From Heptranchias perlo (Eukaryota): a stretch of 64,000 bases of DNA. The position numbers were made by a program, and so were the translations under genes. The notes under the pieces are model-generated. The model was not told the DNA's origin, did no database searches, and saw nothing but the letters and a program-made list of their open reading frames with translations. Positions 2,636 through 63,861 of the stretch are shown here, in pieces. The stretch is from positions 55,180,001 to 55,244,000 of the forward strand of contig NC_090341.1 in NCBI RefSeq assembly GCF_035084215.1, written 5' to 3'. Each line of letters opens with the position of its first letter. The first letter of the stretch is position 1.

Positions 2636-4830
2636 CAGCATTAGTGGTTATGTTACTGGACTAGTAATCTGGAGTCATAAGTTCAAATCCCACCACGGCA
2701 GCTAGGGAATTTAAATTCAATTAATTAAAATAAAATCTGGAAAAAAAAACATCAGTAATGGTGGCCATGAAACTACCGGATTGTTGTAAAAACCCATCTG
2801 GTTCACTAATGTCCTTACCCAGTCTGGCCTATATGTGCCTCCAGACCCACAGCAATGTGGTTGATTCTTAATTGCCCTCTGAAATGGCCTAGCAAGCCAC
2901 TCAGTTGTACAATCTCACTACAAAAAGTCATAAGAATAAAACCGGACGGACCACCCGGCATCGGACCACTCGGCACCGGACACGACAAAGGAAAACCAAG
3001 CCCAGTCGACCCTGCAAAGTCCTCCTCACGAACATCTGGGGACTTGTGCCAAATTTGGGAGAGCTGTCCCACACACTAGTCAAGCAACAGCCTGACATAG
3101 CCATACTCACAGAATTATACCTTTCAGCCAATGTCCCAGACTCTTCCATCACCATCCCTGGGTATGTCCTGTCCCACCGGCAGGACAGACCCACCAGAGG
3201 TGACAGTACACTGATATACAGTTGGAGGGAGTGGCCCTGGGAGTCCTCAATCTCATGGCATCAGGTCAAACATGGGCAAGGAAACCTCCTGCTGATTACC
3301 ACCAACCACCCTCCCTCAGCTGATGAATCAGTCCTCCTCCATGTTGAGCACCACGTGGAGGAAGCACTGAGGGTAACAAGGGCACAGAATGTATTCTGTG
3401 TGGGGGACTTCAATGTCCATCAACAAGAGTGGCTCAGTAACACCGCGACTGACCAAGCTGGCCGAGTCCTGAAGGACATGGCTGCCAGACTGGGCCAACA
3501 GCAGGTGGTGAGCGAACCAACACGAGGGAAAAACCTACTTGACCTCATCCTCACCAATCTACCTGTCGCAGATGCATCTCTCCATGGCAGTATTAGTAGG
3601 AGTGACCACCGCACAGTCCTTGTGGAGATGAAATCCCGTCTTCACACTGAGGATACCATCCAACGTGTTGTGTGGCACTACCACCGTGCTAAATGGGATA
3701 GATTCAGAACAGATCTAGCAGCTCAAAACTGGGCATCCATGAGGCGCTGTGGGCCATCAGCAGCAGCAGAATTGTATTCCAGCACAATCTGTAACCTCAT
3801 GGCCCGGCATATTCCTCACTCTACTATTACCAACAAGCCAGGGGATCAACCCTGGTTCAATGAGGAGTGTAGAAGAGCATACCAGGAGCAGCACCAGGCA
3901 TACCTAAAAATGAGGTGCCAACCTGGTGAAGCTACATGCATGCTAAACAGTGGAAGCAACATGCTATAGACAGAGCTAAGTGATTCCACAACCAATGAAT
4001 CAGATCAAAGCTCTGCAGTCCTGCCACAACCAGTCGTGAATGGTGGTGGACAATTAAACTAATGGAAGGAGGAGGCTCTGCAAACATCCCCATCCTCAAT
4101 GATGGCAGAGTCCAGCACATGAGTGCAAAAGGCAAAGTTGAAGCATTGGCAACCATCTTCAGCCAGAAGTGCTGAGTGGATGATCCATCTCGGTCTCCTC
4201 CAGATATCCCCACCATCACAGAAGCCAGTCTTCAGCCAATTCGATTCACTCCACGTGATTTCAAGAAACGGCTGAGTGCACTGGATACAGCAAAGGCTAT
4301 GGGCCCCGACAACATCCCGACTGTAGTGCTGAAGACTTGTGCTCCAGAACTAGCCGCTCCTCTAGCCACACTGTTCCAGTACAGCTACAACACTGACATC
4401 TACCCGACAATGTGGAAAATTGCCCAGGTATGTCCTGTCCACAAAAAGCAGGACAAATCCAATCCAGCCAATTACTGCCCCATTGGTCTACTCTCAATCA
4501 TCAGCAAACTCGCCAAGGCTTCTTCGACAGCACCTCCCAAACCCGCGACCTCTACCACCTAGGACAAGGGCAGCAGGTGCATGGGAACAACACCACCTGC
4601 ATGTTCCCCTCCAAGTCATACACCACCCCAATTGGAAATATATTGCCGTTCCTTCATCGTCGCTGGGTCAAAATTCTGGAACTCCCTACCTAACAGCACT
4701 GTGGGAGAACTTTCACCACACGGACTGCAGCGGTTCAAGGCGGCGGCTCACCACCACCTTCTCAAGGGCAATCAGGGATGGGCAATAAATGCCAGCCTTG
4801 CCAGCAATGCCCACATCCTATGAATGAATT
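2636..4830 (+). mobile_element. CR1-group non-LTR retrotransposon with tRNA-derived 5' head, APE endonuclease and internally deleted RT
   Basis: A-box-like tagtgg (2642) and B-box gttcaaatcc (2681-2690). ORF 2905-3969 has APE motifs (DIAILTE, IPGY, GDFN, LDLILTN, SDH). RT N-terminus in 4176-4510 (KAMGPDNIP, WKIAQVCPVHKK, NYCPIGLLSIISK). The 3' end gatgggcaataaatg...cccacatcc.atgaatgaa is shared with the copy at 8385-9580. Stops and frameshifts are present. Confidence 0.9.
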
Positions 4831-5235
4831 TTTAAAAATTGATGACTTATTCTTATTTTTGCTATGTGATTACTCTAAAATCTTCCACAGTTTTAAAAAA
4901 TCTCAGCACAAAGCAACCTTTTGGCAATTCGATTTCATTACACTGGTTTTCCATTTTCTATCCACTAGGATGATGGATTAATATTAATTCCTGTTTTGTT
5001 TCAACCGAAGGTGCAAAGTCCTTTCAGGTGGAGCTACCTGCCGTGAACACACAGCCTACACTAATGTTGCCTGGGTCACAGTTATGACTATCTATAGTTT
5101 ATAGGTCTTTCATGTACTATGCTACATACCACCCTCAAAATGGCTTCTGCCACTGCATGCTGGGAAATTGGCTATGAAATTGGTCAAACTGTCGATTAGT
5201 AACTGAGGGAAACAATGGTCCAAGTTTTAAAAAAT

Positions 5236-7965
5236 ATTTTTCAAGATATACTTTATTTCATAAAATTTAAAGATGCACACAATTCAATATAAAAATCACA
5301 ATTCCAAGCAATATAGTTCAAAATACAGCACAAATCGCATACAATACGATCCCATTATTACAATTCAAAACACAGTACATATCTTATAAGACATGCTGTA
5401 CAAGGTGAAATGGCCTTACAAAGTGGCCTTTCCCCATACAGCCTTTGTGTAGGCCGCACCTCACTTCAGAGCGTCCCGCAGCACATACTCCTGGAACTTG
5501 GAGTGTGCCAGTTTACAACACTCGGTCGTGGACAGTTCCTTCAGCTGGAAGACCAGCAGGTTTCGGGCAGACCAAAGCGCCTCCTTCACAGAGTTGATGG
5601 TCTTCCAGTGGCAGTTAATATCTGTTGCGGTGTGCGACCTGGGGAATAGCCCATAGAGCACAGAGTCTTGTGTTACCGAGCAGTTGGGGATAAACTGGGA
5701 CAGATACCAACGCATCTCTCTCCACACCCTCTGCGTGAAGGGGCAGTCGGACGACGGTCTCCTCCCTGCTGCAGCCTTGAGGGCAGCTCGTGGTGGCACT
5801 GAGATTCCATGCGTTTTGGAAGGACCGCACTGGAAGGGCCCTTCTCACCACCATCCAAGCTACATCCTGGTGCCTGTTGGTCAGTTCCAACGACGAGATG
5901 TTCTGCCAAACGGCTTCGGCCGTCTAGTCGAGGAACTGCCCACTCTGATCCACCCTCTCCTTTCCCTGCAGGACCCCAGAACATTCCGTGCCGACCACTG
6001 TCGGACAGCCTATGGTCGAAAGGGATCCTCTTCAGGAACTTCTTCACCTGGGACCGGTGGTGGGGTACAGTCCAGCCATCAGGATCAGGGCAGTGTTGGG
6101 GACGCTTTTCCCCCTTTGTCTGAGGGCTTGTACATATTGTCCCTGCGGACGCGTTCTACCTTGGACCGCCAGACAAAGTGGAAGATGGCACGGGTGACTA
6201 TGACGGCGGAGCGGTGGGGAATGGGCAACACTGCGAGCACCTCATACCTTATCACCAAGTTTCTGCCGGCCATGGAGTGAGAGGGCCTCCCACATACCAA
6301 GCTTCTGTCTGGCCTTGGCGACCCATTCCTCCCAGTTCTTGGTGCAGGCCTGATCCAGATCCCCGGCATCTTCAGGTAGTCGGGCCGGATGATGAAGGGG
6401 ACATAGATTGGGTGTCCCATCTGCCATGGCCTCGCTCTTAATGCAATTCACTCTGGCCCCCGAGGCCAGCTCAAACTGGTTGCAGATGCCCATCAATCTG
6501 TGGACCGAATGCTAATCGGAGAAAAAGATGGTGACGTCACCCATGTACAGGGAGGCTTTAACCTGAGAGCCTCCACTGCCTGGGATCATCACCCCCGATA
6601 CCTGTGTCCTTCCTGTTGGACGAGGCAAACGGCTCGATACAACACACAAACAAGACCGCAAAGAGAGGACATCCCTGCCTGACTCCAGATCTGATCGGAA
6701 AGCACTCTGACTCCCACCTGTTGATTAGGACTGCACTACGGATGTCTGCATAGAGCAGCAAAGTCCAATTGCGGATTTCCTCCCCAAACCCCATTTTAGA
6801 GAGCACGTCCATCATGTACATGTGAGATATGCTGTTGAAGGCCTTCTCCTGGTCCAGGCTGATGAGGCAGGAGTTCACCCCCCTGTCCTGCACATAGGTG
6901 AACGTATCCCTGAGCAGCGCGAGTTTATCAGAGATCTTCCTGCCGGGTGCAGTACAGGTCTGATCAGGGTGGATCACCAGTTCCAGAGCAGATTTGAGCC
7001 TGTTGGCCTTAGACAGAATCTTGTAGTTGACATTTAGCAAGGAAATGGGTTACCAATTTCTGATTTCTTCCCTCTTCCGCTTGCAGATGAGGATAATGAT
7101 GCCTTTCCTCATGGATTCTGACATGCTGCCTGCCAGAAGCATACCCCCGTACACTTCCGGCAGGTCCGGGCCTATCCAGTCCCACAGAGCCGAGTACAAT
7201 TCAACTGGTAAGCCATCACTTCCGGGAGTTCATCTCTTCTCGAAGGACTGAACAGCCTTTGTCAGCTCATCCAAAGTCAGCAGTCGATCCATGCTGTCCC
7301 GCTCGCTGTCCTCTAAGACCTCCATGATAGAGGACAGGAAGGACTGGGAGACTGTGCTGTCTGTGGGCTTCGCGTCATACAATCCGGCATAAAAGGACTT
7401 GCTGATCCTCAGTAACGTCTTTGCGATCTGCAAAGACGTCACCAAGCCGTCTTCCTCCTTCAGGCTACTGATCATAGAGGCCTCTCCATGCAACTTCTGG
7501 AAGAAGCGCGAGCATTTCTCGTCTTGCTCCATGGAGCAGACTCTGAACTGGAAGATGATCTTTCGAGGCCTTGGAGGTGAAGACCGATACTTGCTGGCCC
7601 TTCACCTCTCGAGTTCCTCCTCAAAATCAACCCCCATCAACTGCAGCTGGAGCAGATCCTGCATGCTTTTCTGGAGCTGGGACAATTCCCTCTGTCTCTC
7701 ACTTTCTCGCCCTCTGAACACCTTTAAGGACGAAGAAAGTCTTGATGTTGGCCTTGATCGCTTCCCACCAGTGCACCGCGGAGTCAAAGAGGGGTTTCAT
7801 GGTCCTCCAACCTGTGCAATCCCTCCTTAGTTCCTCAATGTTCTCCGGGGTCAACAGTCTCGCGTTCAGCTTCCATATTCCCCTGCCCGCCTTCTGGTCC
7901 TCCTTTGGTTGACAGTTAGCCAGTAGGAGGCAGTGGTCAGAGAAGAACACCGGCTGGACGTCGAC
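5236..7965 (-). mobile_element. Tx1-like (L1 clade) LINE, 5'-truncated and frameshifted
   Basis: Minus-strand peptides FSDHCLL..RGIWKLN, EQDEKCSRFF, LNVNYKILSK, HPDQTC..PGRKISD, SLDQEKAFN, SGVRQGCPL, ASGARVN and C-terminal AWMVVRRALPV / CPFTQRVW. AATAAA and an A-rich tail lie near 5236-5257. Confidence 0.85.
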
Positions 7966-8384
7966 CCAAGTGCTAGAAACCCAGCATGCATCACCAGGCA
8001 ATTAATCAACATCACATTCTATACAGGATGACCTTAGCTTAGACAGCCATCCTCAACCTCCAAGTGGCCTTTGACAGTCCTTTGTTTAATGTGTTAATGC
8101 AGCTGCTTTCCATAATACAGGTAATAGCACAGCCTCAATGTCAAAGGATGTATTTCGAGTTTGGATATTTCTGATATTCTATTTACAATTTTGACCGAGC
8201 CACAAACAGACACAGAAGCAACACGCAAACTTCTCAAAAACATATGCCTATGTAATTCTGAATACGACCATGACAGGTAGGGTTCAAGGTGCTACTAAGC
8301 CATCAAAAAGAACCTACTGTTTGAAACATCTGCAAAGAAAAGCCATTTAAAGGAATTCATCAGCCTAACTTGTATTTAACATTT

Positions 8385-9580
8385 TTTTTATTCATTCATG
8401 GGATGTGGGCGTCGCTGGCGAGGCCAGCATTGATTGCCCATCCCTAATTGCCCTTGAGAAGGTGGTGGTGAGCCGCCTTCTTGAACAGCTGCAGTCCGTG
8501 TGATGAAGGTTCTCCCATAGGAAGGGAGTTCCAGGATTGTGACCCAGCGACGATGAAGGAACGGCGATATATTTCCAAGTCGGGATGGTGTGTGACTTGG
8601 AGGGGAACGTGCAGGTGGTGTTGTTCCCATGTACCTGCTGCCTTTGTCCTTCTAGGTGGTAGAGGTCGCGGGTTTGGGAGGTGCTGTCGAAGAAGCCTTG
8701 GTGAGTTGCTGCAGTGCATCCTGTGGATGGTACACACTGCAGCCACAGTGCGCCGGTGGTGAAGGAAGTGAATGTTTAGGGTGGTGGATGGGGTGCCAAT
8801 CAAGCGGGCTGCTTTGTCCTGGATGGTGTCGAGCTTCTTGAGTATTGTTGGAGCTGCACTCATCCAGGCAAGTGGAGAGTATTCCATCACACTCCTGGCT
8901 TGTGCCATGTAGATGGCGGAAAGGCTTTGAGGAGTCAGGAGGTGAGTCACTCGCCACAGAATACCCAGTCTCTGACCTGCCCTTGTAGCCACAGTATTTA
9001 TATGGCTGGTCCAGTTAAGTTTCTGGTCAATGGTGACCCCCAGGATGTTGATGGTGGGGGATTCGGCGATGGTAATGCCGTTGAATGTCAAGGGGAGGTG
9101 GTTAGTCTCTCTTTTGTTGGAGATGGTCATTGCCTGGCACTTGTCTGGCGCGAATGTTACTTGCCACTTATGAACCCAAGCCTGGATGTTGTCCAGGTCT
9201 TGCTGCATGCGGGCTCGGACTGCTTCATTATTTGAGGGGTGGCGAATGGAACTGAACAATGTGCAATCATCAGCGAACATCCCCATTTCTGACCTTATGA
9301 TGGAGGGAAGGTCATTGTTGAAGCAGCTGAAGATGGTTGGGCCGTGGACACTGCCCTGAGGAACTCCTGCAGCAATGTCCTGGGGCTGAGATGATTGGCC
9401 TCCAACAACCACTACCATCTTCCTTTGTGCTAGGTATGACTCCAGCCACTGGAGAGTTTTCCCCGATTCCCATTGACTTCAATTTTACTAGGGCTCCTTG
9501 GTGCCACACTCGGTCAAATGCTGCAGTTACTCTCACCTCACCTCTGGAATTCAGCTCTTTTGTCCATGTTTGGACCATGA
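8385..9580 (-). mobile_element. 5'-truncated CR1-group LINE (same family as 2636-4830), RT and 3' end
   Basis: ORF 8444-9418 has GVPQGSVHGP, FADDC, LNWTSHI and MEYSPLAW. AFDRVWHQG lies upstream. The 3' tail is near-identical to 4510-4830, with poly(A) at ~8382-8389. Confidence 0.92.
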
Positions 9581-9918
9581 ACTATTTTAAACCTTCACGG
9601 GCTATTTCAAACCAATTGTGTTATTCAAGCTGACCAATACTCAATGGGGGTTATATTGAATAATCCCCAAAATGAGTGCTGGGATGGTGGTGCGTGATTA
9701 ACCAGTCATAGCGATGCAGGAAGCACGTAATATTCAATGATTGCAGTATGTCGCCAGTGTTACCTGCACTGTTGATTGGCTGCATGCACCAGCAGGGGGC
9801 CCCGAGATTGGGAGTGGCTAGCACTACTTAAAGGCAGCCTGCTCCTCTTAAAGAGGAAGTGCATTGTGGCTGCAGGAAGTCCTTTGGGAAGTAACTCTGT
9901 GGTGGGAGATATTGAAGA

Positions 9919-11870
9919 ATGGCTGCGCCTGGGAGAGAGCGTGCACCAAATTTCTCGGACAGTGCACTAGAGGCGGACAGATGAAGGGCCATCCTATATC
10001 CGCAGGGGGACAGGAGGCCCTCCAGACATATGCTGAAGAGGCAGTGGGAGGCTGTAGTGGACGAGGTAAATGCCAGGAGCATCGCACCACACCACACACA
10101 TGGATGCAATGCAGGAAGAAGTTCAAGGATTTGACTCGAATAGTCAAGGTCAGTACGTTCAACTGTCACGTGGCATATCCTACCAACCGCACCACTAGTC
10201 TCATCCACTGTTCCACGCACGACACCCCCCCCGTCATCCACTACCAACAAACTCTTTCAATCAGTTCGCAACCCTGCGAATCAGATGCTGCATCTCACCC
10301 TCATATGTTACCACTCTTGAAAGCCACACACCCACAACTCAGATCACACACACTGGCAGCTATTCAACCATGACAGTCACATTACCCAAATATCTTGCAG
10401 GACAATCACTGACACACTTCCCTCTTTCTTGCAGAAGAAGATGGCACATAACAGTAGGCAGCAGGAATGAACTGGGTGAGGACAGGCACGCCTACACGTC
10501 CTCACCCGCATGGAGGGGACAGTGCTGTCCATCAGTGGTCGGATAGTCACTGCGGCTGTGGCCACTGGCGGTGCTGGAGGTATCGATGATTAGGCCTCTC
10601 CATGCAGCTTCTGGAAGAAGCGCAAGCATTTCTCATTCTGCTCCACGGAGCGGACTCTGAACCGTGACTCTGCAAACCTAATCCTCCTACTTGCTTCCCA
10701 CTTCTCCCTCAGCCCACAATCTTTTCTGACTCACATGCTGCAGATGCTGTAAGCGCACACGTCTTACTTTCTCCTCTCCCCGCACCACAACTCAACCCTT
10801 GTCCCTTGGTCATTTCAGATACCCAAGAACTGGAACCGACACAGTCAGAGGAGGCAGAGGAAGACAATAATGATGATGCGGACACACCATTACTCGATCT
10901 TACACTCGCAGCCACAAGCTCAGTTACCGACACTGTGCGTACTTTATAGGCTAGGATAGAGGAGGGATCTGCACATGGTGAGACACCAGGCACGTGCGCA
11001 GGAGACGGGGCGGGGGTGGAAACAGATACCGCAGGTGCCCGCTTGCCGGAGGGAGAGGTCTCGCACTAGTTCTGCTGCAGAGGAATCAGATGATGACTTC
11101 GATGGGCCAGCTACAGAAGACGGCTGATGGGCGTACACCACCAAATGCTTGGTGCACCAGAAAGTCTGCCAGAAAGCCTGTGCACAATGTCAAGCGGTAT
11201 GGAGGAGTCCAGCTCCAACTTGGCACAGGGTTTTGCGCCGAGCCTGGAACCCATCCTTTCCTACATGGAACAAGTGGTCACCTCCATCAGCACACCTGTG
11301 GAACCCACCATGATACAGTGTCTGATGACTGATATCACAGCTTCCATTGCACCACAAACAGCTGCCATCCAAGGTCTGACTGCTGCAATTGGAGCTCAGA
11401 ATTCTGCCTTGGAAGCGCAGACTGCTGCTATCGTGGGTCTGGGGACCACTGTAGAATGGGGCTTCCAGGGAGTCACAGCAGTCCAGCAGTCTGTTCTCCA
11501 GCAGATCACCAGGATTGCTGAGGTGCCACCCCGTGAGAATGGCAGTGGCACCATGGAAGATGGACCCACTGTCCTCTCTCAGGATGATAGCATTCCTGCT
11601 CCCACCCCTGCCACTCCGCCAGTGCCTTTGCTGTTGCCTGTCAGCCAACCAGCCCAGACTGCTGCAGCCCATGCTGCGATGGTGCAGTCTGAAGCTGGGC
11701 CCTTCGGCCCAGAGCTGCTTGAGGTCGTCCTCCAAGGCCATCTGCACTCTCCTCCATCGAAGGCCAGAAGCCTCCCACCACCCATGCTCCAGCCTCTAGG
11801 GATGCACCTCATAAGAGCACTAGGAAAGGTAAAGGCACACGAATGACAGGCACCAAGGGAATGCACAAGG
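9919..11870 (+). pseudogene. Harbinger Myb/SANT DNA-binding protein pseudogene, 3 exons (~9919-10148, 10435-~10591, 10819-~11870)
   Basis: MAAPGRERAPNFSDSALE...RTTPHTWMQCRKKFKDLTRIVK|gtcagt. Acceptor tctttcttgcag|KKMAHNSRQQE*TG*G; acceptor catttcag|. Coiled-coil-like ORF 11127-11846. Contains stops and frameshifts. Confidence 0.75.
10592..10662 (-). mobile_element. 71-bp internal Tx1-LINE fragment inserted in the decayed Harbinger
   Basis: About 64/71 identical to 7478-7548 by manual alignment. Confidence 0.85.
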
Positions 11871-12084
11871 GTGAATAGTATCAGTTTGTTTGAATTATTT
11901 CATGTGCAAATCTATAAATGTGGTTATGAATTTGCATTTGGTGTTGGTTTTCATTTCTGCGATGAGCTGAGGGAGGAAGCAAAGTGTAATCATAAGGAGG
12001 ACAATTTGATGGTCATGTGGGAGAGGAAAGGTAAGGAGTATGGGACTGTTGGTGAATGGGGAGATGTCGTTGAGGTTACTAGTA

Positions 12085-13141
12085 TCACTCATTAACCATC
12101 TGATCACGCAGAGCCCTGGAAGACAGGGCCTGTATCTTGTTGCCGCCGCCACTTCCTCCCCCTCCACTTCCTGCCGGATAGGCAGTGGCAAGGGCTGTTC
12201 CCTCATAATGGCGAGGTTGTGCAGCACGCAACGACAAATCTTGATACCCGCTCAGCTGAGTACTGCAGGGCTCCTCCAGAGTGGTCCAGGCAGCAGAAGC
12301 CAACGGTGTACTCAATGATGTTCCGTGTGGCAGCATGGCTTTCACAGTAAGTCTGCTGTGCATGTTTGCATGCGTTCCAGACCGGAGTTAGGAGCCACTT
12401 CATGAGAGGATAACCCTTGTTGTCCAGCAGCCAGCCTTTGACTTGCCGTGCTGATTGAAATACAGGTGGCACATTGGGCTGCCGCAAAATGAAGGAATCA
12501 TGACTGCTGCCATGGTAGTGACCTGCATGATGTGCTGCACATGGCCGCACACTAGCTGCGCATTGAGGGAGCGGAATCCCTTTCAGTTTATGAATATGGC
12601 TGAGTTCTGATGTGGAGCATGCATGGCAATATGTGGTGCAGTCAATGGCACCCTGCACCATGGGGAAGCCTGCAATGCGAGCAAACCCTCATGCATGCTT
12701 ATGCTGCTTGCCTCTGGCAAGAGTGAATGAGATGAATCTATATCGGAGTGCATACGGAGCCTCAGTGCCCTCCCTTATGCAGCATTGCACTGCAAACAGC
12801 AAGATGTTGCTTCTATCTCTGGCTCCTTTCAGGCTGCCGCTGGAGCCGTAAAAATTAAGCGCCACAGTTACCTTGGCAGCCAAAGGCAATGCTGTCCTTG
12901 CCCTGCTCTGAGGCTGCGGCTAAAGCAGTTGACAAATTTCAGTCGACAAATTTCAGTCACAACCTCTTTAGTGAACCGCAGCTGTCTGATACACTGGTCA
13001 TCGCTGAAGTTGAGGTAAGATAATTGGTTCCTGAAGGCCCTCTTTCGATATGGCATCCTGCTGAGTGCCCTGCACCGCCGTCACCTCTGCCACCTCCTTC
13101 TCCTCTTCTGGCAGCTTGTCCTACTCTGCGTGCTCCCATTC
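12085..13141 (-). pseudogene. Harbinger DDE transposase pseudogene
   Basis: Frameshifted fragments in the correct order: YRKRAFR..YLNFSDDQCIRQLRFTK, PLAAKVTVALNFYGS, VQGAIDCT, GSSHDSFILRQ, GWLLDNKGYPLMKWLLTP, HAATRNIIE, LHNLA. Confidence 0.88.
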
Positions 13142-24510: not shown

Positions 24511-24650
24511 AGGAAATCTGGATCTTTTGGGGGATAGTTTAATTATGACCAGTGATGTATCATGGATAACCACAGTCGCCTGAAGCTTGATTGATTGTCT
24601 GAGGGAGTCACAGAGGAACTTCCCGGAGCTTTTCTGAAATTGGCCACAGA

Positions 24651-25079
24651 TGGATTTTGGGACTATTTTCATTTAATACCCAGCTGGATTTTGGGACTAT
24701 TTTCATGTAATACCCAGCTGGATTTTGGGACTATTTTCGTGTAATACCCAGCTGGATTTTGGGACTATTTTCATGTAATACCCAGCTGGATTTTGGGACT
24801 ATTTTCGTGTAATACCCAGCTCGATTTTGGGACTATTTTCATGTAATACCCAGCTGGATTTTGGGACTATTTTCATGTAATACCCAGCTGGATTTTGGGA
24901 CTATTTTCATGTAATACCCAGCTGGATTTTGGGACTATTTTCATGTAATACCCAGCTGGATTTTAGGACTATTTTCATGTAATACCCAGCTGGATTTTAG
25001 GACTATTTTCATGTAATACCCAGCTGGATTTTGGGACTATTTTCGTGTAATACCCAGCTGGATTTTGGGACTATTTTCA
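24651..25079. repeat. Minisatellite, 34-bp unit x ~12.6
   Basis: Unit TGGATTTTGGGACTATTTTCATGTAATACCCAGC repeated head-to-tail with only single-base variants and no spacers. Confidence 0.97.
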
Positions 25080-25789
25080 CCATGTGAAATAGTGTGCATT
25101 ATATATGAAACATTTAATGTTTGGTACTTGATACATATGAACTTCTCATTTTAATTCTTGTTCATGTGAAAAGTAAGTCCTGTGGAAAGTGAAATTATGA
25201 ACTGCAGTTAGAAGATAAATATTTATACTGTGGTAAATACTGTTACAACATCAGCAGACATTAGCTGTACCTCCCCGCAGTGAATAGCAAGTTATAGTGC
25301 TAGGGTAACTCATAACTGACAGATTTTTCTAATCCAGCAAGATAGTTAAATTAGCAGCCTCCGCAGGTCTTAACCTACATCAATTAACAGCCTCTGCGGA
25401 TCCCACACACTCACCTGACCTATTGAGCAGTTTCCCATCCTCACTCTGCCTTCTCATGACAGTGAAAAAGCTAGTTTACTTTTTCTTTGTTGAAGTAGAC
25501 AAGCTGATAAACCTTTAGGGTGTAACCCCAACACTGACTTACTGATAACAACTAACCCAAACAGCAGGACAAATGTAGGGGTACAACGTAAACCCTCTCA
25601 TGCTCAATAGCAAAGTAAAATTACGTGATTTAATGTGAATAATGCTGTTTTATGATTATGACAATTTAATTTTATGACTTAATTAGATATCTGATCTCAA
25701 CTTAAGCATTAAATCTCCTCGATCATTCACTACAGTCTTACTGAAGCCTCTTCTGGATAGGACATTTTATGTATCTCATTGCAAGCAAT

Positions 25790-27235: not shown

Positions 27236-28144
27236 GAGGTGAGCCCTGATAAATTGGAACAATTGATCAAAAACTAAGCTTACATTTGTCCACTGCCCCC
27301 GCCCCCTCACTCACCCTGGACATACTCCACTAGGGCAAATATAGTTGAATTCTATATGTTAACCACATTACTGATTGCTGCAACTGTTGATTGAAAAAAC
27401 GTGATAGGGTTAGTCCAGCAATCACAAGACTGGCTAATGAAAATCAGAACTTCAGTCACTGGTGATGAAAAATATACCTCTGAAACTGTTCATTCAGGTT
27501 AGGTAGACACAACATTGAGATATCACCATATTTCACTGATGCAGAATGGCTAATGACCTCCTCAAAAGGGATAGAGATCCTCTATCACATTACCAGGTAT
27601 CAACAATTTCAAAGTTTATTAAACTTCCAAAAGGTATTGTTTAATATATGGTGCTTTGTTTAGATTAAAAGGTATAGGACAAGAGAATTCAAGCCCACTC
27701 CTTACAGCGAGCGACATACAATTTGTTCCATTGTAGACTCTCACTGACTTATTTGTCATTAGGGTAAATGACTACGAAACAACTTGTACAACAATCTCAT
27801 ATCAGGACCCCTTAAAAAATTTAAATAATTATGATTAACTTTTTTTTGTTTTGTTCAGTCAATTTTTGCCTTAACTTTTTTTTAAAAAAGGAATTTTTGT
27901 GCTCATTAGAGGTGAGGGATCTTACAGCTGGGGAAAGGAATCCTTTCCATTTCAGACACCCAGAATCTGCTTGAATAGTAAGGGCCCGATTTTACCAGGG
28001 GTGCGGGTTGGCAGCGGGTGATCAGGCGGGCTCGAGGAAAACGCGCCGGCCAAATTGAGTGCGTTGCGCACGCGATCGCGGGATGATTGATGTAATTAGC
28101 CGGCAGTTACGGGTTCCGCGCTTCTCAGCTGCGTGCCGGCGGCC

Positions 28145-28190
28145 TGCGCATGCGCATTGACGTCTGAGCGATGGTTGCGCTCTATTTAAA
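28145..28190 (+). promoter_or_regulatory. Putative promoter of the Myb/SANT gene: NRF1 palindrome, CRE-like site and TATA-like box
   Basis: TGCGCATGCGCA (28145-28156), TGACGTCT (28158-28165) and TATTTAAA (28183-28190), about 50 bp upstream of the ATG at 28240, in CpG-rich sequence. Confidence 0.55.
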
Positions 28191-28239
28191 GGGGCAGTCC
28201 ACCAAAGCCCCTCCAGCCACAAACTACACTCCATCAAGG

Positions 28240-30110
28240 ATGGAGGAGCACAGGGGTAAGGCTGCTCCCCGTTTCACGGACCACGCCCTCCAGGTGCTGC
28301 TGGACGGGGTCCGCATGAGGAGGGAGACGCTGTTCCCCACGGATGGAAGGAGGTGCCCTGCCAGCGCCACCAAGAGGGCATGGGAGGAGGTGGCCGCAGA
28401 GGTCACAAGCAGGGGAAACACCACCCGCACTTGGATTCAGTGCCGCAAGAGATTCAATGACCTCACCAGGTCTGGAAAAGTGAGTACACTAACGCACTCT
28501 GCGTCACTCCGTCTTCCACATCACCTCAACCACCTCACAACCCCATCTCCACTGACAGCACTGCGCTCCCGCACCAATCCTCACAGCCACCCAACTATCA
28601 GCCTCACAGTGCCTGCACGTACCCACCGTCCCTGTCCCCACTCGACCACTACCACACACCCCAATGCCCATACAATGGGATGGCCATGTGGCACACGCAT
28701 CCTCCCATCCATCTGCCACACGCTCAACCCACTCACACCAATGCTTGAAGCGTCTCACATTGTAATCATCACTCAATAACGTTTTTGTGTTTTGCCCTCA
28801 CAGGAGAAGAGGGCCAGGAACGCACGCGATAGGGCATGCACCGGAGGGGGCCCGCCACACGAGGTGGCCCTGACAGACGCCGAGGTCGAGGCACTGGAGA
28901 TCAGCCGCACGCTGCATTGCCTGTCGATGGCGGATGGCGAGTCTGGTTCTGGCGAAACGGCCGGTAAGGGAAAGCTGGCACTCATCACTCATGATCGTGA
29001 ATGATCTTAGCATCACATGGCATATGCCGCACCGCCACATTTGGTCACATGCCTGATATTGCCCTCTGTTCTCTTGCAGGACCGTCTGCGATCGACGTCT
29101 CGGTTGAGAGCGATTCCTCAGAGGACATGCCCGTCTCGGAGGGTGCATCGTCACACATGAGCCTTGCATCCACCAGCGCAGATACACACACCTCGGTGGG
29201 TCCCCCCCCTCAGCTAGTTGGGATTGCACATGGTGAGTCACCGCGCACACGTGAGCATGAGCAGACCCTGGTGGCAGGGTCAGCCGCGGAGGGTCCGCGT
29301 CGGTGGGAGCACTCTTCTCCAGGCTTTGCTCAGCCGGACCCAGATGCTGAACCCAGGGGGCCACCTGTCAAAAGGAGAGTCGTCGAGGGGCACCAGAACA
29401 TTGCTGAGGTACTGGGAGAGGTGCCACACGCACTCTCCACAATCGCACGGAGGATGGAGGAGTCCAACTCCTGCATGAGGGGAATGGTGGCACAGGTGCA
29501 GGAGGGTATCGCCAAGATAGTGTCGCAAGGACGTGAAGGCATCTCTGAGATAGTGTCGCGGGTAGGTGTGGGAACGTCTGCGGTGGAGGACAGGCTAGCC
29601 TCCCTCGAGCGTCACGCACAGCTCACCAATGAGTCCATCCAGGCCCTCACAACGGCTGTTCGGATTCAGGGTGAACAACATTCTGCCGCCATCAACAGGT
29701 TGACAGATACATTGGAGGTGGCCTTGCAAGGTCTCACCCACGTCATCCAAACTGCCGTCCAGCAGGGTGGAAGGGGTGATGTGGGCCTTGGCCATGAGAG
29801 GGAAGATGGTGAACGGGGAAATGGAAGTGTGGACACTACTCAAGGCGCCCCCAAGTCTCACCCGTTGCCCCCCTCTCAACCAGTGCCCGCAATAGTCCAT
29901 CCTCTCCAGGTGGCTGAGTCTGCCCCTGCACAGGTGCAGGAGGAGCAGTCTGTGGAGGTGCCCTCACGGGCACCGAAACCCAGGGGGTGTCGGCCCAAAG
30001 CATCTACCCGGTCAGGGCACGAACAGGAGCAACCTGCCACCACCTCTGCTGGAGCCACAGGGGTAGCACCACGTAGGGGGTCCCGAAAACGAACGCCTAA
30101 AGTTCCGTGA
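28240..30110 (+). CDS. Harbinger Myb/SANT-like DNA-binding protein, spliced: 28240-28479, 28804-28963, 29080-30110 (~476 aa)
   Basis: Exon 1 encodes MEEHRGKAAPRFTDHALQVLLDGV...AWEEVAAEV...RTWIQCRKRFNDLTRSGK (Myb/SANT-like, NAIF1/MSANTD type). GT-AG junctions aaa|gtgagt, ccctcacag|gag, ccg|gtaagg and ctcttgcag|ga have phases 0 and 1 and keep the frame open. Basic C-terminus PRRGSRKR; AATAAA at 30183. Confidence 0.88.
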
Positions 30111-30410
30111 GCACACAGGGATTGCACCAGGGTGTTTGTCTATTTGGTTTTTTTTATTTCCACTCTTTGAATGTCACCACAAAATAAACTCACTTTTTCT
30201 CACCAATGCTGCCACCTCTTGTCCATAATTCTGCGGCTTGTGCAATATGTCCCTTCCGTGCGCCTCATCATGACGACGACCACCCCGTCCCACCCATTGG
30301 GCATAATGCAGTAGGTGCAGGTGTACAGGCACCACTCTTCTGTGGAGGGAGCCTGTATGGACCCTCGTCTGTGCACGTTATGACATGTGAACGCCTCACA
30401 CAGTGTGATG

Positions 30411-31640
30411 TTAGGAGAACCGTTGGCATATGAGTGCCTCCCTGGCCTGACGAGCACGCAGGTGAGCCGGTGTTCGGCGCATGGGTCGTTCCTCCTCCTC
30501 TCCCTCTTCCTCCTCCTCCACCTCCACCTCCTCCTCATTGTCGTCCTCAATGTGGGTGGCGGGTGTGCATGGGGCCTCCTCCAGCGGCACCCCTCTCTGT
30601 AGTGCCATGTTATGCAGGGCACAGCAGACAACTATAATTCGTCCCACTCTGAATGGCGTGTATTGGAGTGCTCCCCCGGAACGATCAAGGCACCTGAAGC
30701 GCATCTTGAGCAGCCCTATAGCCTGCTCAATTGTAGACCTGGTAGCAATGTGGCTGTCATTATACCGATGCTGTGGCTCGGTAATGGGGTTCCTCAGAGG
30801 TGTCATAAGCCACGTGTGCAGGGGATATCCCTTGTCGCCGAGGAGCCAGCCGTTGCCGGCGTTGGGTGCATGGAAGAGGGGCGGGACGGTGGACTCCCTG
30901 AGGACGAAGGCATCGTGGCAGCTGCCAGGGTATCTGGCGCACACGTGTAGGAATCTCTGGCCATGGTCACAAATGAGCTGGGCGTTCATGGAGTGATACC
31001 CTTTCCTGTTGATAAACAGCCCTGGCTCATGTGGAGGTGCCCGTATTGCTATGTGGGTGCAATCGATTACACCCTGCACCCGTGGGAAGCCAGCCACAGC
31101 ATGGAATCCAACCGCTCTCTCCGTCTGGCTGCGCTCATCCATGGCGAAGTTGATGTAGGTCGAGGCCCTGCGGAACAACCCATCGGTGACCTGCCTTATG
31201 CACTTGTGTGCAGACGACTGACAGACCCCGGTGATGTCCCCCGTGGCACCCTGGAAGGATCCGGAGGCGAAGAAGTTGAGGGCAGTGGTGACTTTGACGG
31301 CGACGGGTAAGAAGATGCTGCTTGGTCCATCCGGGAGCAGCTCGTCATTGAGGAGGCTGCAGATGTCGGCGACTACCTGGCGAGTGACTCTGAGCCTCCG
31401 TATGCACTGCTGCTCAGAGAGGTCCATGAAGCTGAGCCTCGGTCTGTAGACCCTGTGCGGAGGGTAGTGCCTCCTGCGACGCATCTCTCTCTGCGGATGC
31501 CCTCCATCCTGCTGTGCAGGTGGATGTGCCGCAGCACCGTGTTGTGGGGATGCACGTCTCTGAGGCGGACGGCGTGGACTGCGAGGCTGCTGAGGCTGGT
31601 CATGCTGTTCGTCCTCCGAGGATGTCAACGCAGCACCCAT
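30411..31640 (-). CDS. Harbinger DDE transposase (HARBI1-like, DDE_Tnp_4 type), 409 aa, intact
   Basis: Uninterrupted ORF with LPVAVKVTTALNFFASGSFQ (HTH), GVIDCTH, NRKGYHSMNAQLICD, PGSCHDAFVL, LLGDKGYP, TIEQAIGLLKMRFRCL and CCALHN, plus an acidic C-terminal tract. Confidence 0.95.
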   Translation of the reverse strand: MGAALTSSEDEQHDQPQQPRSPRRPPQRRASPQHGAAAHPPAQQDGGHPQREMRRRRHYPPHRVYRPRLSFMDLSEQQCIRRLRVTRQVVADICSLLNDELLPDGPSSIFLPVAVKVTTALNFFASGSFQGATGDITGVCQSSAHKCIRQVTDGLFRRASTYINFAMDERSQTERAVGFHAVAGFPRVQGVIDCTHIAIRAPPHEPGLFINRKGYHSMNAQLICDHGQRFLHVCARYPGSCHDAFVLRESTVPPLFHAPNAGNGWLLGDKGYPLHTWLMTPLRNPITEPQHRYNDSHIATRSTIEQAIGLLKMRFRCLDRSGGALQYTPFRVGRIIVVCCALHNMALQRGVPLEEAPCTPATHIEDDNEEEVEVEEEEEGEEEERPMRRTPAHLRARQAREALICQRFS

Positions 31641-32039
31641 CTGGCAGGTTTAGGTTTGCGGGGTTGTGCACGCTAGAAAAGTGTGTCCTCGCACAGGGGT
31701 TGGACTTCCACGCCGGTGAATCTTCTTGCTTGGAGGAGGGTGGTGGAGGGCAGGCGTTGCCCAATGTTACGGAGTGTCCTCCTGCGTTGGTGAAGGCTCT
31801 CCCCCCCACCTGTGGAATGCACCTTGGCAGCTGCCACAGGCTGCTGGCTGCAACACGTCCGTTGGGAGTGAGAGTGTTTCCCCCAGTATGGGAAACAGTC
31901 TCATTTCACCGTAAAATCCCACACCTGTTAAATAAACAGCTCAATCAGGTCATTTAATGACCTGAAATACCAAGATAAATACACTCAAGTGGAACCCCGC
32001 TGGCTTTAATTGCCTGCGGGATTCCCACCAACGGGGCCA

Positions 32040-32090
32040 ACGCACGCACCCCCGCACGTCAGCGCGCAACCCGGAAGTGGGCGGGATCGA
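32040..32090 (-). promoter_or_regulatory. CpG-rich right terminus with CRE-like, ETS and GC-box motifs (candidate transposase promoter)
   Basis: gcacgtca, CCGGAAGTG (32071-32079) and gggcggg, upstream of the minus-strand transposase. Confidence 0.4.
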
Positions 32091-32182
32091 GGCCCGATCT
32101 GGTCCCGCTCCTCGAAACTGGGATTTTAGAGGCCCCCCCGCCGAGAACGCACCCGGGACCGGGTGCTAAAATCGGGCCCTAA

Positions 32183-46901: not shown

Positions 46902-48201
46902 GACCATAAGAGATAGGAGCAGGAGTAGGCCATTCGGCCCCTCGAGTCTGCTCCGCCATTCAATGAGATCATGGCTGATCTGATTTTTACCTCAACTCCA
47001 CTTTCCTGCCTTTTCCCCATATCCTTTGACTCTCTCGCTGATCAAAAATTTGTCTAACTCAGCCTTGAACGTATTCAATGACTCAGCCTCCACAGCTTTC
47101 TGGGGTTAATAATTCCAAAGATTGACGACCCTCTGGGAGAAGAAATTCCTCCTCATTTCCATCTTAAACGGGCGACCCCTTATTCTGAGACTATGCCCCC
47201 TAGTTTTAGATTCCCCCATGAGAGGTAACATCCTCTCAGCATCTACCCTATCGAGTCCCCTCAGGATCTTGTATGTTTCGATAAGGTCTCCTCTCATTCT
47301 TCTAAACTCCAGAGTATAGACCCAATCTGTTCAATCTTTCTTCATAAGACAACCCTTCCATACCCGGAATCAACCTAGTGAACCTTCTCTGAACTGCCTC
47401 CAATGCAAGTATGTCCTTCCTTAAATAAGGGCACCAGAACTGTACGCAGTACTCCAGGTTTGGTCTCACCAGCACCCCGTACAGTTGTAGCATAACTTCC
47501 CTGCTTTTATACTCCATCCCCCTAGAAATAAAGGCCAATATTCTGTTTGCCTTCCGGATTACCTGCTGCACCTGTACGTTGACTTTTTGTGTTTCATGTA
47601 CGAGGACACCCAGATCCCTCTGTACCGCAGCATTTTGTAGTACTTCTCCATTCAAATAATATTTTGCTTTTTTATTTTTCCCTCCCAAAGTGGATGACTT
47701 CACATTTTCCCACATTATATTCCATCTGCCAAATTTTTGCCCACTTAACCTGTCAATATACCTTTGCAGACAGTTTGTGTCCTCATCACAACTTGCTTTT
47801 CCACCTATCTTTGTATCATCAGCAAATTTGGCCACAAGACACTCTGTTCCTTCATCCAAGTCACTGATATATATTGTAAATAGTTGAGGCCCCAGCACTG
47901 ATCCCTGCGGTACCCCACTAGTTACAGATTGCCATTGTCCTGCTACTACTTCCTTAATAATGGATTCTAGCATTTTCCCAATGACAGATGTTAGGCTAAC
48001 TGGTCCATATTTACCTGCTTTCTGTCTCACTCCCTTCTTGAATAGGGGTGTTACGTTTGCGGTTTTCCAACCCGCTGGGATCTTTCTAGAATCTAGTGAA
48101 TTCTGGAAGATTACAACCAATGCGTCCACTATCTCTGTAGCCACTTCCTTAAAGACCCTCAGATGCAATCCATCAGGTCCAGGGGACTCGTCAGCCTTTA
48201 G
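46902..48201 (-). mobile_element. CR1 LINE with internal deletion
   Basis: SPGPDGLH, WKTANVTPLFKKG, then a jump to VTSGVPQGSVLGP, KFADDTK and LVRPNLEYCVQFW. CR1 3' UTR present. Confidence 0.92.
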
Positions 48202-49824
48202 ACTTGCATCTGTATCACATAAATCTACCAGCACAGCTGCTATTTTTCTATTGGCTTTGGATTTTTCCTAAAGAGCTTTCAGTGTTTTGTTTTAAATGCG
48301 GCTCTATTGAGAAAATGAATTGTTCACTTGCAAGCCAGAAATTATAAACAATATCCCTTTAAAGACTGCTTTCACTACACTGGTCAATTTCCTCATTAGT
48401 GTTAATTACAGTCACTGTATCCCTGCTGAACACAGGAGGAAAGCCATTTGCCCTGCCGGTGCTCACTCACTGCCATATGGGTTAGAGACACTTCAACAAC
48501 ATGCCAGCTCAGCTTAGTCAGTTAGTTGCCATATGGACACAGTCAAGATCTCCCAGTAAAATCACCAAAGGAGTGTTGCAGCAGGAATCCCACCCACGCA
48601 CCCGAATTACACTCCATGCTGTAGGCAGCTGCGTCAGTTAACTTTGTTTTCAGCAACTGCACAAGGTTGTACTACATTTTGCAGAAAAGACTGAATGCTC
48701 AAAAAGTAGGACGCACCTCTTTGACTTGTTTATTTTTCTTCCCTCTCCACCCTCTCATTTCTTGATATGATTGTTTTTAAAACATTATTACACTCTTTCC
48801 CTTTTGCTTCAGGGCCTTTGCTAATGCTGCTCTGTAATTAGGCTGCTGGGAGGGTCAGATTAGTCCACAAGTAACTCGGGCACTCATTTTCCTTCCCTTC
48901 TCAAGGAGTCTATTCCCTCAGGCAGCGTTATGGAGATCTGCAATTCATCACATCAGAAATCTTGGGCATGAACCCGCATCATTCTAACAAGTGGTACAGC
49001 ACTTTACAGCATGAATGTGCTACACTACCATCTTCAACTCAGACTTTAACTGAACAAATTCCTCGTGGAAGACAAAGCATCAAGACTTAATCAACGTTGT
49101 GAATCCTAAATCCCAAGGCAATACAGTCACAGAACGAGGCCAGATTAAGTATACAGCTGACGTACTTTTGGAACTGCTTTCTGCTTCAATCAATTGGATC
49201 TTACATTCAAAAACTAGAGTGGAAAGTCCATTTCAATTCCAGGCTGGACTAATTTACCCACAATCACAGTGAAGTGAAAAGTACACTTTTTTGCCCCTTT
49301 ACATTTTCTCCGTCTGTAGATTTCCTTGTAGCATGCCATTTCCAGCCAAGGGAACAAGATGACGACTTATATCCATCCCTCTACCCATAGCACTGATAGG
49401 TACATGAAGGTCCAGAGTGCCTTTTATGGGTAAAGTTCCAAGTCTGTGCTCAGCTAGCTTTAGGATTGAGACTAGGGTTTGGGTTGGGACTGCCAAAGCT
49501 CCACTCCCCACCCCTCAGTAGTTTACCTTGAATCTCTGTCTCCATTGTAAAAGCAGACAGTTTCCGAACTCAGACATAAAGCAAACAGGAGAGGAAACTG
49601 ACATGGAGGTATCAAGGCATGTAGTGAGGTAAAGGCATGGAGCAGGTGGCAGAGCAAAATAATAATGAGTCAACATCATTGTCCATTATTTCTCCCAACA
49701 AATTAAGTACAAGAATTCAAATGTTGTCGATTGTTACTGCACCATCAAGATGGCCACACATAGGTGATGCTATGAAGGACTGCAACTCAAACCTGAAACT
49801 GAATTCGAAACAAATGAAAATGAT

Positions 49825-63639: not shown

Positions 63640-63861
63640 CTTGATGTAGTTATCCAATACTGGGTACACCTTGTAAATTGCCAGAAGCAGTGAGAGGAAG
63701 GTCGTGAAAGGGAAAGTTGTCATAACAACATGTGTGACTTCTGGGAAGGAGAATATCTTGAAGCCGAACTTCTCAAAGAGTTTGACTAGTTCTTCAGAAG
63801 GTTTCTCATCGCCTTCACTCAAGATGGTGCCTGCTATATATCGCAGCTTCTCTTCTGGTAC
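63640..63861 (-). CDS. TEX264: TEX264 internal coding exon (GyrI-like domain), 222 bp / 74 aa, phase 0-0
   Basis: ttttgattccag|GTA...AAG|gtaggc encodes VPEEKLRYIAGTILSEGDEKPSEELVKLFEKFGFKIFSFPEVTHVVMTTFPFTTFLSLLLAIYKVYPVLDNYIK. It is colinear, with equal length, with the recalled human segment VPPDKCRCAVGSILSEGEESPSPELIDLYQKFGFKVFSFPAPSHVVTATFPYTTILSIWLATRRVHPALDTYIK. Confidence 0.92.

What the first reader, a model, noticed from the sequence alone, without database searches (positions are those of the whole stretch)
27979..32182. Apparently intact, potentially active two-component Harbinger transposon in a vertebrate intron
Seen: perfect 13-bp TIRs, the canonical TAA TSD, an uninterrupted 409-aa transposase with all three catalytic-motif regions (GVIDCTH, LLGDKGY, IEQAIG), an intact partner gene, and abundant CpG despite a CpG-poor background. 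Known: Harbinger transposition needs both the DDE nuclease and the Myb/SANT protein, and the vertebrate system that was studied functionally (zebrafish Harbinger3_DR) had to be reconstructed. Inference: this is a recent insertion and may be a naturally active element, of interest as a cut-and-paste tool and as a relative of domesticated HARBI1/NAIF1.
Basis: partly seen in the sequence, partly recalled or inferred. Interest (0 to 1): 0.8.

Follow-up and report, generated by a model that had tools for sequence, protein, structure and literature searches.

The report
Young intact Harbinger transposons in shark
This is an intact copy of a two-gene jumping DNA element that spread through a shark genome in a fairly recent burst and prefers a long palindromic landing site; many natural copies look undamaged and could be tested directly, but nothing here shows that it still jumps today.

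Summary
Confirmed: a 4,198-bp autonomous Harbinger (13-bp GGG-starting TIRs, TAA duplication, 409-aa DDE transposase, predicted three-exon 476-aa Myb/SANT gene) lying in a ~261-kb intron of shark TEX264. It is one of roughly 240-320 copies. In a position-based sample, 80 of 96 fetched copies are full length, 50 form a very young tier, and 42 of those 50 keep both frames and DDE. The window copy belongs to the older tier (48 changes from the majority). Two corrections. TAA is not typical: TWA makes 6 of 112 duplications, CWG 4; specificity lies in a palindrome, (C)AGACAC-WWW-GTGTCT(G), and 15 of 112 insertions hit one site of an abundant repeat. Present activity is not shown: no identical pair among 81 young copies, and private changes fit one pulse (about a million generations at a published shark rate) rather than steady activity to the present. 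Verdict: a Harbinger3_DR/NuwaI-like family with a relaxed duplication, testable without reconstruction; moderate interest.

The parts
27979..27981 (.). left target-site duplication TAA
   Evidence: single TAA in element-free paralogous sites
27982..27994 (+). left TIR, 13 bp, starts GGG
   Evidence: same 16 bases in 28 of 29 copies
28183..28190 (+). TATA-like box TATTTAAA ahead of the Myb gene (promoter role inferred)
   Evidence: kept in 12 of 12 aligned left ends, including distant relatives
28240..28479 (+). Myb/SANT gene exon 1 (trihelix DNA-binding domain)
   Evidence: Myb_DNA-bind_5 E 1.1e-10; dN/dS 0.16-0.26 against 4 sister copies
28804..28963 (+). Myb/SANT gene exon 2 (predicted; an acceptor 3 bases later also keeps the frame)
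   Evidence: GT/AG kept in 29 of 29 copies and 4 of 4 sisters
29080..30110 (+). Myb/SANT gene exon 3 to stop; no Pfam match; basic C-terminal stretch
   Evidence: spliced frame open in 99 of 118 copies
30153..30188 (.). two convergent AATAAA signals (30153-30158 on -, 30183-30188 on +) between the genes; use inferred
30411..31640 (-). transposase ORF, 409 aa; D193, D269, E305
   Evidence: DDE_Tnp_4 E 2.1e-36; alignment A1
32167..32179 (-). right TIR, 13 bp
32180..32182 (.). right target-site duplication TAA
32183..32328 (+). rest of the abundant repeat fragment that the element split (its first ~12 bases lie at 27967-27978); LINE 3' end by recall
   Evidence: 1977 exact hits of the right flank; flank match; loose ends
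63640..63861 (-). TEX264 coding exon (residues 88-161); the element lies in the following intron, transposase on the gene's strand
   Evidence: 100% to P0121; exon places

Best explanation
An autonomous cut-and-paste DNA transposon of the Harbinger3_DR/NuwaI type, long resident in a shark lineage. It carries two convergent genes. Inferred from characterised Harbingers, not tested here: the Myb/SANT protein binds the element's ends and brings the DDE transposase into the nucleus and onto the ends; the transposase cuts the element out and inserts it with a 3-bp staggered cut. Shown here: the insertion leaves a 3-bp duplication whose letters are loosely A/T-rich, while the complex selects a 13-17-bp palindrome around it, (C)AGACAC-WWW-GTGTCT(G), so one matching site in an abundant repeat is hit again and again. 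The family spread in successive waves, the last a pulse that made about 60% of full-length copies; this window's copy is an intact survivor of an earlier wave in a TEX264 intron. Copies are under no constraint after insertion, but the lineage that transposed was selected to keep a working transposase. Whether any copy moves today is open.
For: Anatomy. Copy number: 34 of 37 matches cover nearly the whole element at 96-100%; 317 hits of a family-specific exon-1 30-mer, 238 of a 3' 31-mer. Independent insertions: different flanks, duplication in 112 of 118. Target: 6.44 of 10 arm matches in register against 0.97-2.84 at offsets of 1, 3, 5, 7, 10 and about 4.2 at offset 2, 77 sites; 8.4 bits over 97 sites, 15 repeat-site insertions left out; the repeat site stands empty 7402 times. 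Two tiers: 6-17 against 25-218 changes from the majority; both frames plus DDE in 42 of 50 young and 6 of 30 older copies. Selection: transposase core private N/S 119/72 against shared 6/15, P=0.004; dN/dS against 4 sister copies 0.23-0.41 (core) and 0.31-0.35 (Myb). Kinship: NuwaI features and Harbinger3_DR's place in that group; Harbinger3_DR target AAACACCWGGTCTTT.
Against: Myb selection within the family is not significant (P=0.086). Splicing and expression are not shown. No tree with Harbinger3_DR was built; kinship rests on features and a hand count of 51 of 81 identical residues. No subterminal binding motif stood out from shuffles. The duplication fits neither TWA nor CWG. Copies are mosaic (42 of 78 non-CpG site pairs show all four combinations), which blurs dating.
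Confidence: 0.85

Rival explanations
1. The family is still transposing in the shark's germline today.
For: 72 of 81 young copies keep both frames and DDE; 8 of 81 encode the same pair of proteins; two copies differ by one base; private divergence of young copies (0.06-0.09%) is below the 11 differences in 6,823 flank bases (0.16%) between the assembly and run X3, so many young insertions may still be polymorphic.
Against: No identical pair among 81 young copies. Private changes in the 50 position-sampled young copies have variance/mean 0.76-0.93, as for equal ages; ages spread evenly up to the present gave this in at most 0.05% of simulations. A low residual rate is not excluded, and only part of the family was sampled.
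Confidence: 0.25
2. A domesticated, host-serving HARBI1/NAIF1-like gene pair.
For: Databases name the shark homologues 'putative nuclease HARBI1'; both frames are open.
Against: Hundreds of dispersed copies with TIRs and duplications; private changes are mostly amino-acid-changing (180 N to 88 S in the transposase); only 12 of 37 older copies keep both frames and DDE; the best homologues are 64-77% identical, not orthologue-like.
Confidence: 0.02
3. A recent horizontal invader of this shark.
For: A very young, uniform tier; high G+C and CpG against the host background.
Against: The genome holds graded relatives at about 98%, 94%, 90% and 67-83% identity and a decayed Harbinger in this same window; the top protein hits are from sharks and rays; organism B holds pieces about 95% identical.
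Confidence: 0.06
4. Near-identity and mosaicism of the copies are assembly or polishing artefacts.
For: How the assembly was made is not known here; mosaic haplotypes could arise from mis-mapped polishing reads.
Against: Each copy has its own flanks and duplication; private changes show a natural spectrum in both tiers (transitions 64 of 127 and 422 of 732; CpG transitions 21 and 126); frame loss rises with divergence.
Confidence: 0.05

Closest known systems
Harbinger3_DR (zebrafish; NuwaI-2_DRer in Han et al., PMC4482050)
   Same: DDE_Tnp_4 plus Myb_DNA-bind_5 genes, 12-13-bp TIR, 4204-bp length in both (supplement row; typical young copy), long palindromic target with ACAC...GT arms; 51 of 81 residues identical by hand count over the C-terminal catalytic segment.
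   Different: Duplication mostly WWW (71 of 112), not CWG (4 of 112); arms AGACAC/GTGTCT against AAACAC/GTCTTT; Myb protein 476 against 221 aa; Harbinger3_DR was a reconstructed consensus, whereas 72 of 81 young copies here are open as they stand.
PIF/Harbinger group in the strict sense (TWA; Ping/Pong, PIF)
   Same: Two genes, short TIRs, 3-bp duplication, extended target preference.
   Different: TWA in only 6 of 112 sites.
Domesticated HARBI1 / NAIF1 / MSANTD genes (PMC9392472)
   Same: Derived from the same two protein types; shark database hits carry the HARBI1 name.
   Different: Those are host genes; this is a multi-copy element with ends, duplications and decaying older copies.
Harbinger elements noted in other fishes and sharks
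   Same: Harbinger/Tourist are the commonest DNA transposons in the grey reef shark annotation; expressed in teleosts; 9.1% of insertion polymorphisms in carp; 88 PIF/Harbinger and 11 NuwaI families already called potentially active on two intact ORFs.
   Different: In the passages seen, none describes a shark family copy by copy, its target or its age; PMC9179366 found none in elephant shark and asked for other cartilaginous fish to be examined.

Membership tests
PIF/Harbinger superfamily (broad sense) | DDE transposase of the Harbinger/IS5 type with D, D, E | tested here: met
   DDE_Tnp_4 E 2.1e-36; D193, D269, E305
PIF/Harbinger superfamily (broad sense) | second gene with a Myb/SANT domain | tested here: met
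   splicing predicted, splice sites conserved
PIF/Harbinger superfamily (broad sense) | short TIRs and a 3-bp target-site duplication | tested here: met
   13-bp TIR; 112 of 118; paralogous empty sites 14 of 15
PIF/Harbinger superfamily (broad sense) | extended palindromic target preference (9-15 bp, PMC2836001) | tested here: met
PIF/Harbinger superfamily (broad sense) | both proteins needed for transposition; Myb binds ends and transposase | not testable with these tools
   needs an assay; known for Harbinger3_DR from passages
PIF/Harbinger group in the strict sense (Han 2015) | TWA duplication | tested here: not met
   6 of 112
NuwaI group (holds Harbinger3_DR) | TIR 12-61 bp starting GGG; DDE_Tnp_4 plus Myb/SANT; about 4.4 kb; animals | tested here: met
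NuwaI group (holds Harbinger3_DR) | CWG duplication | tested here: not met
   4 of 112
NuwaI group (holds Harbinger3_DR) | transposase falls in the NuwaI clade | tested here: inconclusive
   hand comparison only, 51 of 81 residues with Harbinger-3_DR as printed; no tree
Domesticated HARBI1/NAIF1 | single conserved host locus without TIRs or duplication | tested here: not met
Currently active transposon | identical copies at different loci | tested here: not met
   0 identical pairs among 81 young copies; closest differ by 1 base; only part of the family sampled
Currently active transposon | presence/absence polymorphism, new insertions, expression | tested here: inconclusive
   only contigs, and one sample of the organism, were available

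The most novel reading that the evidence does not exclude
The youngest natural copies are transposition-competent as they stand and still mobile in wild sharks: a naturally working vertebrate Harbinger needing no reconstruction, whose specificity has moved out of the duplicated triplet into the palindromic arms, so that about one insertion in eight lands in one site of a host retroelement, and whose copies keep exchanging sequence (transposase 2-3% diverged from sister families, left end and Myb exon 2 13-16%).
Probability: 0.25. Interest if true: 0.72.

Novelty: new variant of a known kind. Interest (0 to 1): 0.45.

Why it matters
The vertebrate Harbinger studied in cells was a reconstruction, and how its two proteins pick a 15-bp target is unresolved (PMC2836001 passages; no relative with a solved structure found). 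This family offers natural, open copies, 112 mapped insertion sites that define a different target, and sister families with diverged ends and Myb genes but nearly the same transposase. That makes it possible to test which protein reads the target and which reads the ends, and whether a sequence-selective integration tool can be had without repair. It also shows a recent DNA-transposon burst in a lineage whose repeats are mostly LINEs, and warns that many shark 'HARBI1' gene models may be transposon copies.

Tried and rejected
Expression: no RNA holder listed. Run X6 (RNA is only a guess) gave contigs that cross both predicted introns unspliced and almost no cover of unique flanks, and no splice joint was among the 15 of 269 joints shown; not used for or against expression. 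Empty allele at this site: no joint skipping the element among the joints shown; an X3 contig runs 25 bases into the element without a break, short of the 31 needed to count as bridging, and X3 may be the assembly's own sample: a weak hint of homozygosity at most. Binding of transposase (residues 50-355) to a helical part of exon 3: no answer, score 0.00, no evidence either way. Subterminal motifs: best 5-mer GCGGG 11 times, reached in 17 of 300 shuffles; rejected as unproven. Solved structures: none significant. Damage to this copy: its changes G227 and H291 fall in variable columns of alignment A1; no evidence of inactivation. Linkage decay with distance among young copies: none (P=0.13), so simple crossing-over is not shown. 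Exon scans first found no host gene; a looser, masked scan did. Earlier scan notes: nothing. The primary Harbinger3_DR paper is not held. Literature searches without a description of this family: (0 papers); Repbase/Dfam and subscription journals were not searchable, so absence from print is not established.
Full report
Observation. The element spans 27982-32179 (4,198 bp) between two TAA triplets, with perfect 13-bp TIRs. The minus strand holds one 409-aa ORF matching DDE_Tnp_4 (E 2e-36) with D193, D269 and E305. The plus strand holds a gene whose three GT-AG exons give an open 476-aa frame with an N-terminal Myb/SANT domain. The splice model is a prediction; it is backed by intact splice sites in 29 of 29 copies and 4 of 4 sister-family copies, and by dN/dS 0.31-0.35 over the spliced frame. 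CpG observed/expected is 0.64 against 0.34 for the rest of the window.

Setting. The window is G000:C20:55180001-55244000 in a 3.25-Gb genome. An exon at 63640-63861 (-) is 100% identical to P0121, named TEX264 of Heptranchias perlo by its source, so the host is a shark, probably that species or a close relative. TEX264 coding exons map at C20:55.311, 55.2436, 54.982 and 54.916 Mb, which puts the element in an intron of about 261 kb, the transposase on the gene's strand. The element split a short fragment of an abundant repeat: 14 of 15 element-free copies match the left flank at 8-10 of 12 bases and carry a single TAA.

Family. A family-specific exon-1 30-mer occurs 317 times and a 3' 31-mer 238 times. 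Of the first 100 listed hits (contigs C1-C5) I fetched 96: 80 are full length, 7 have other lengths, 9 lack an end in the fetched stretch. With 14 further copies and 24 picked as closest to a young copy the set is 118. Distances from the majority base are bimodal, 6-17 and 25-218. In the position-based sample 50 of 80 are young; both frames plus DDE are kept in 42 of 50 young and 6 of 30 older copies. The window copy is in the older tier: 48 changes from the majority, nearest sampled copy 42 away, 9 private changes, terminal branch 0.0075; its protein changes fall in variable columns. The 26-bp left end occurs 1340 times; among the first 30 of these, 6 were this family, 1 a 94% and 3 a 90% sister, and most of the rest a ~2-kb non-autonomous relative.

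Selection. Changes private to one copy are mostly amino-acid-changing, those shared by four or more copies mostly silent: transposase core 119/72 against 6/15 (P=0.004), whole transposase P=0.015, Myb 215/114 against 21/20 (P=0.086, not significant). This is the pattern of a selfish element whose transposing lineage needs a working enzyme while inserted copies decay.

Target. 112 of 118 copies have a 3-bp duplication, but it is AAT/ATT 28, AAA/TTT 20, ATA/TAT 17 and a tail; TWA 6, CWG 4, WWW 71. The information is in the arms: symmetrised over 97 sites, A at -5 and T at +5 in 83%, C at -2 and G at +2 in 65%, 8.4 bits in all, consensus (C)AGACAC-WWW-GTGTCT(G). Matches to the ten arm bases average 6.44 in register, about 4.2 at offset 2 (the arms are dinucleotide-periodic) and 0.97-2.84 at the other offsets; the consensus was derived from these same sites. 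15 of 112 insertions sit at one site of a repeat, 12 in one orientation and 3 in the other, from both age tiers; that site stands empty 7402 times. It reads as part of a LINE reverse transcriptase frame (by-eye likeness to the RVT_1 frame at 47302-48267; inference). The window site matches 6 of 10.

Age and activity. Among 81 young copies none are identical; the closest pair differs by one base, the mean is 12.6 in 4,176. In the 50 position-sampled young copies private changes average 2.5-3.6 per 4,023 sites with variance/mean 0.93-0.76, as for copies of equal age; ages spread evenly to the present gave this in at most 0.05% of 20,000 simulations. At the epaulette shark rate of 7e-10 per site per generation (PMC10587355; another species) this is 0.9-1.3 million generations, 0.4-6.5 million over its interval. 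Against this, the young divergence is below the 0.16% difference between the assembly and run X3 in unique flanks (11 in 6,823), so many young insertions may be unfixed. Limits: the young tier is set by a cut-off, only part of the family was sampled, and mosaicism hides some private changes. Polymorphism and expression could not be tested.

Exchange between copies. 42 of 78 pairs of non-CpG variable sites in young copies show all four combinations. Against three 90% sisters, non-CpG divergence is 2.1-2.6% in the transposase but 13-15% at the left end and 14-16% in Myb exon 2. L174 joins the left 1.1 kb of the non-autonomous relative to this family's right part. Template switching in gap repair or gene conversion is the likely cause (inference); an assembly artefact is not excluded.

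Mechanism. Shown: anatomy, dispersal, duplication, target palindrome, two age tiers, selection on the transposase. Inferred from Harbinger3_DR and Ping/Pong (passages of PMC9392472, PMC2836001): Myb binds the ends and imports the transposase, both are needed, excision is often clean.

Comparison. The element works like Harbinger3_DR, which Han et al. file under NuwaI (GGG TIRs, DDE_Tnp_4 plus Myb_DNA-bind_5, CWG). It meets the NuwaI features except the defining CWG, and also fails TWA, so it is a member of the superfamily and a variant of the NuwaI type, not filed in either group. Intact two-ORF families are not rare in print (88 and 11), and Harbinger is known in sharks at annotation level, which caps the novelty.

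Papers seen. PMC9179366: passages and four supplement passages; PMC4482050: passages, section 7, supplement rows; PMC3016246, PMC10587355, PMC9392472, PMC2836001, PMC12498223, PMC3014272, PMC13583293 and bioRxiv 10.64898/2026.05.26.728016: passages only (the preprint's supplements were not seen). Sinzelle 2008 was not seen. The label 'LINE 3' end' for the split repeat is recalled.

Verdict. Observation confirmed, interpretation partly supported. A real, intact but not youngest copy of a shark Harbinger family that burst recently in evolutionary terms and has its own target rule. Interest 0.45.

Noticed in passing
window ~9850-13040: A second, decayed Harbinger with the same layout: Myb remnant at 9943-10139 (+), broken transposase at 13041-12221 (-), 40% identical to the intact one, DDE_Tnp_4 E 1e-6.
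   Followed up: partly
window 63640-63861 (-); G000:C20:54.92-55.31 Mb: TEX264 spans about 395 kb of coding exons, with one intron of about 261 kb.
   Followed up: yes
L169-L173: A ~2.05-kb non-autonomous family sharing the TIRs and target, 67-78% identical to the element and 91-98% to each other; it accounts for most of the 30 sampled left ends.
   Followed up: partly
L174 (G000:C1:49310160-49314000): Chimeric 3,469-bp element: non-autonomous left part, this family's right part at 94%, with a clean AAT duplication.
   Followed up: partly
L073, L088: Copies inserted inside Harbinger-like sequence; the flanks of L073 match the element's own 3' region near window 31915-31940 (by eye).
   Followed up: no
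L165-L168: Sister families differ far more at the left end and Myb exon 2 than in the introns or transposase, even without CpG sites; either module exchange or fast co-evolution of Myb and its binding end.
   Followed up: partly
runs X9, X10 on window 27982-32179: Organism B holds element pieces about 95% identical, including the left end, and two flank pieces at 97-99%; organism C holds pieces from about 90% to over 99% at low depth. Organisms are coded, so this was not interpreted further.
   Followed up: no
one search hits, alignment A1: Many shark proteins named 'putative nuclease HARBI1' are close to this transposase; several have K or another residue in place of the third catalytic E. 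The name probably covers both transposon copies and domesticated genes.
   Followed up: no
window 24650-25080: A tandem array of about 14 copies of a 30-bp unit (by eye).
   Followed up: no
window 2893-9478, 47302-48267 and elsewhere: Several LINE remnants with reverse transcriptase or endonuclease matches.
   Followed up: no
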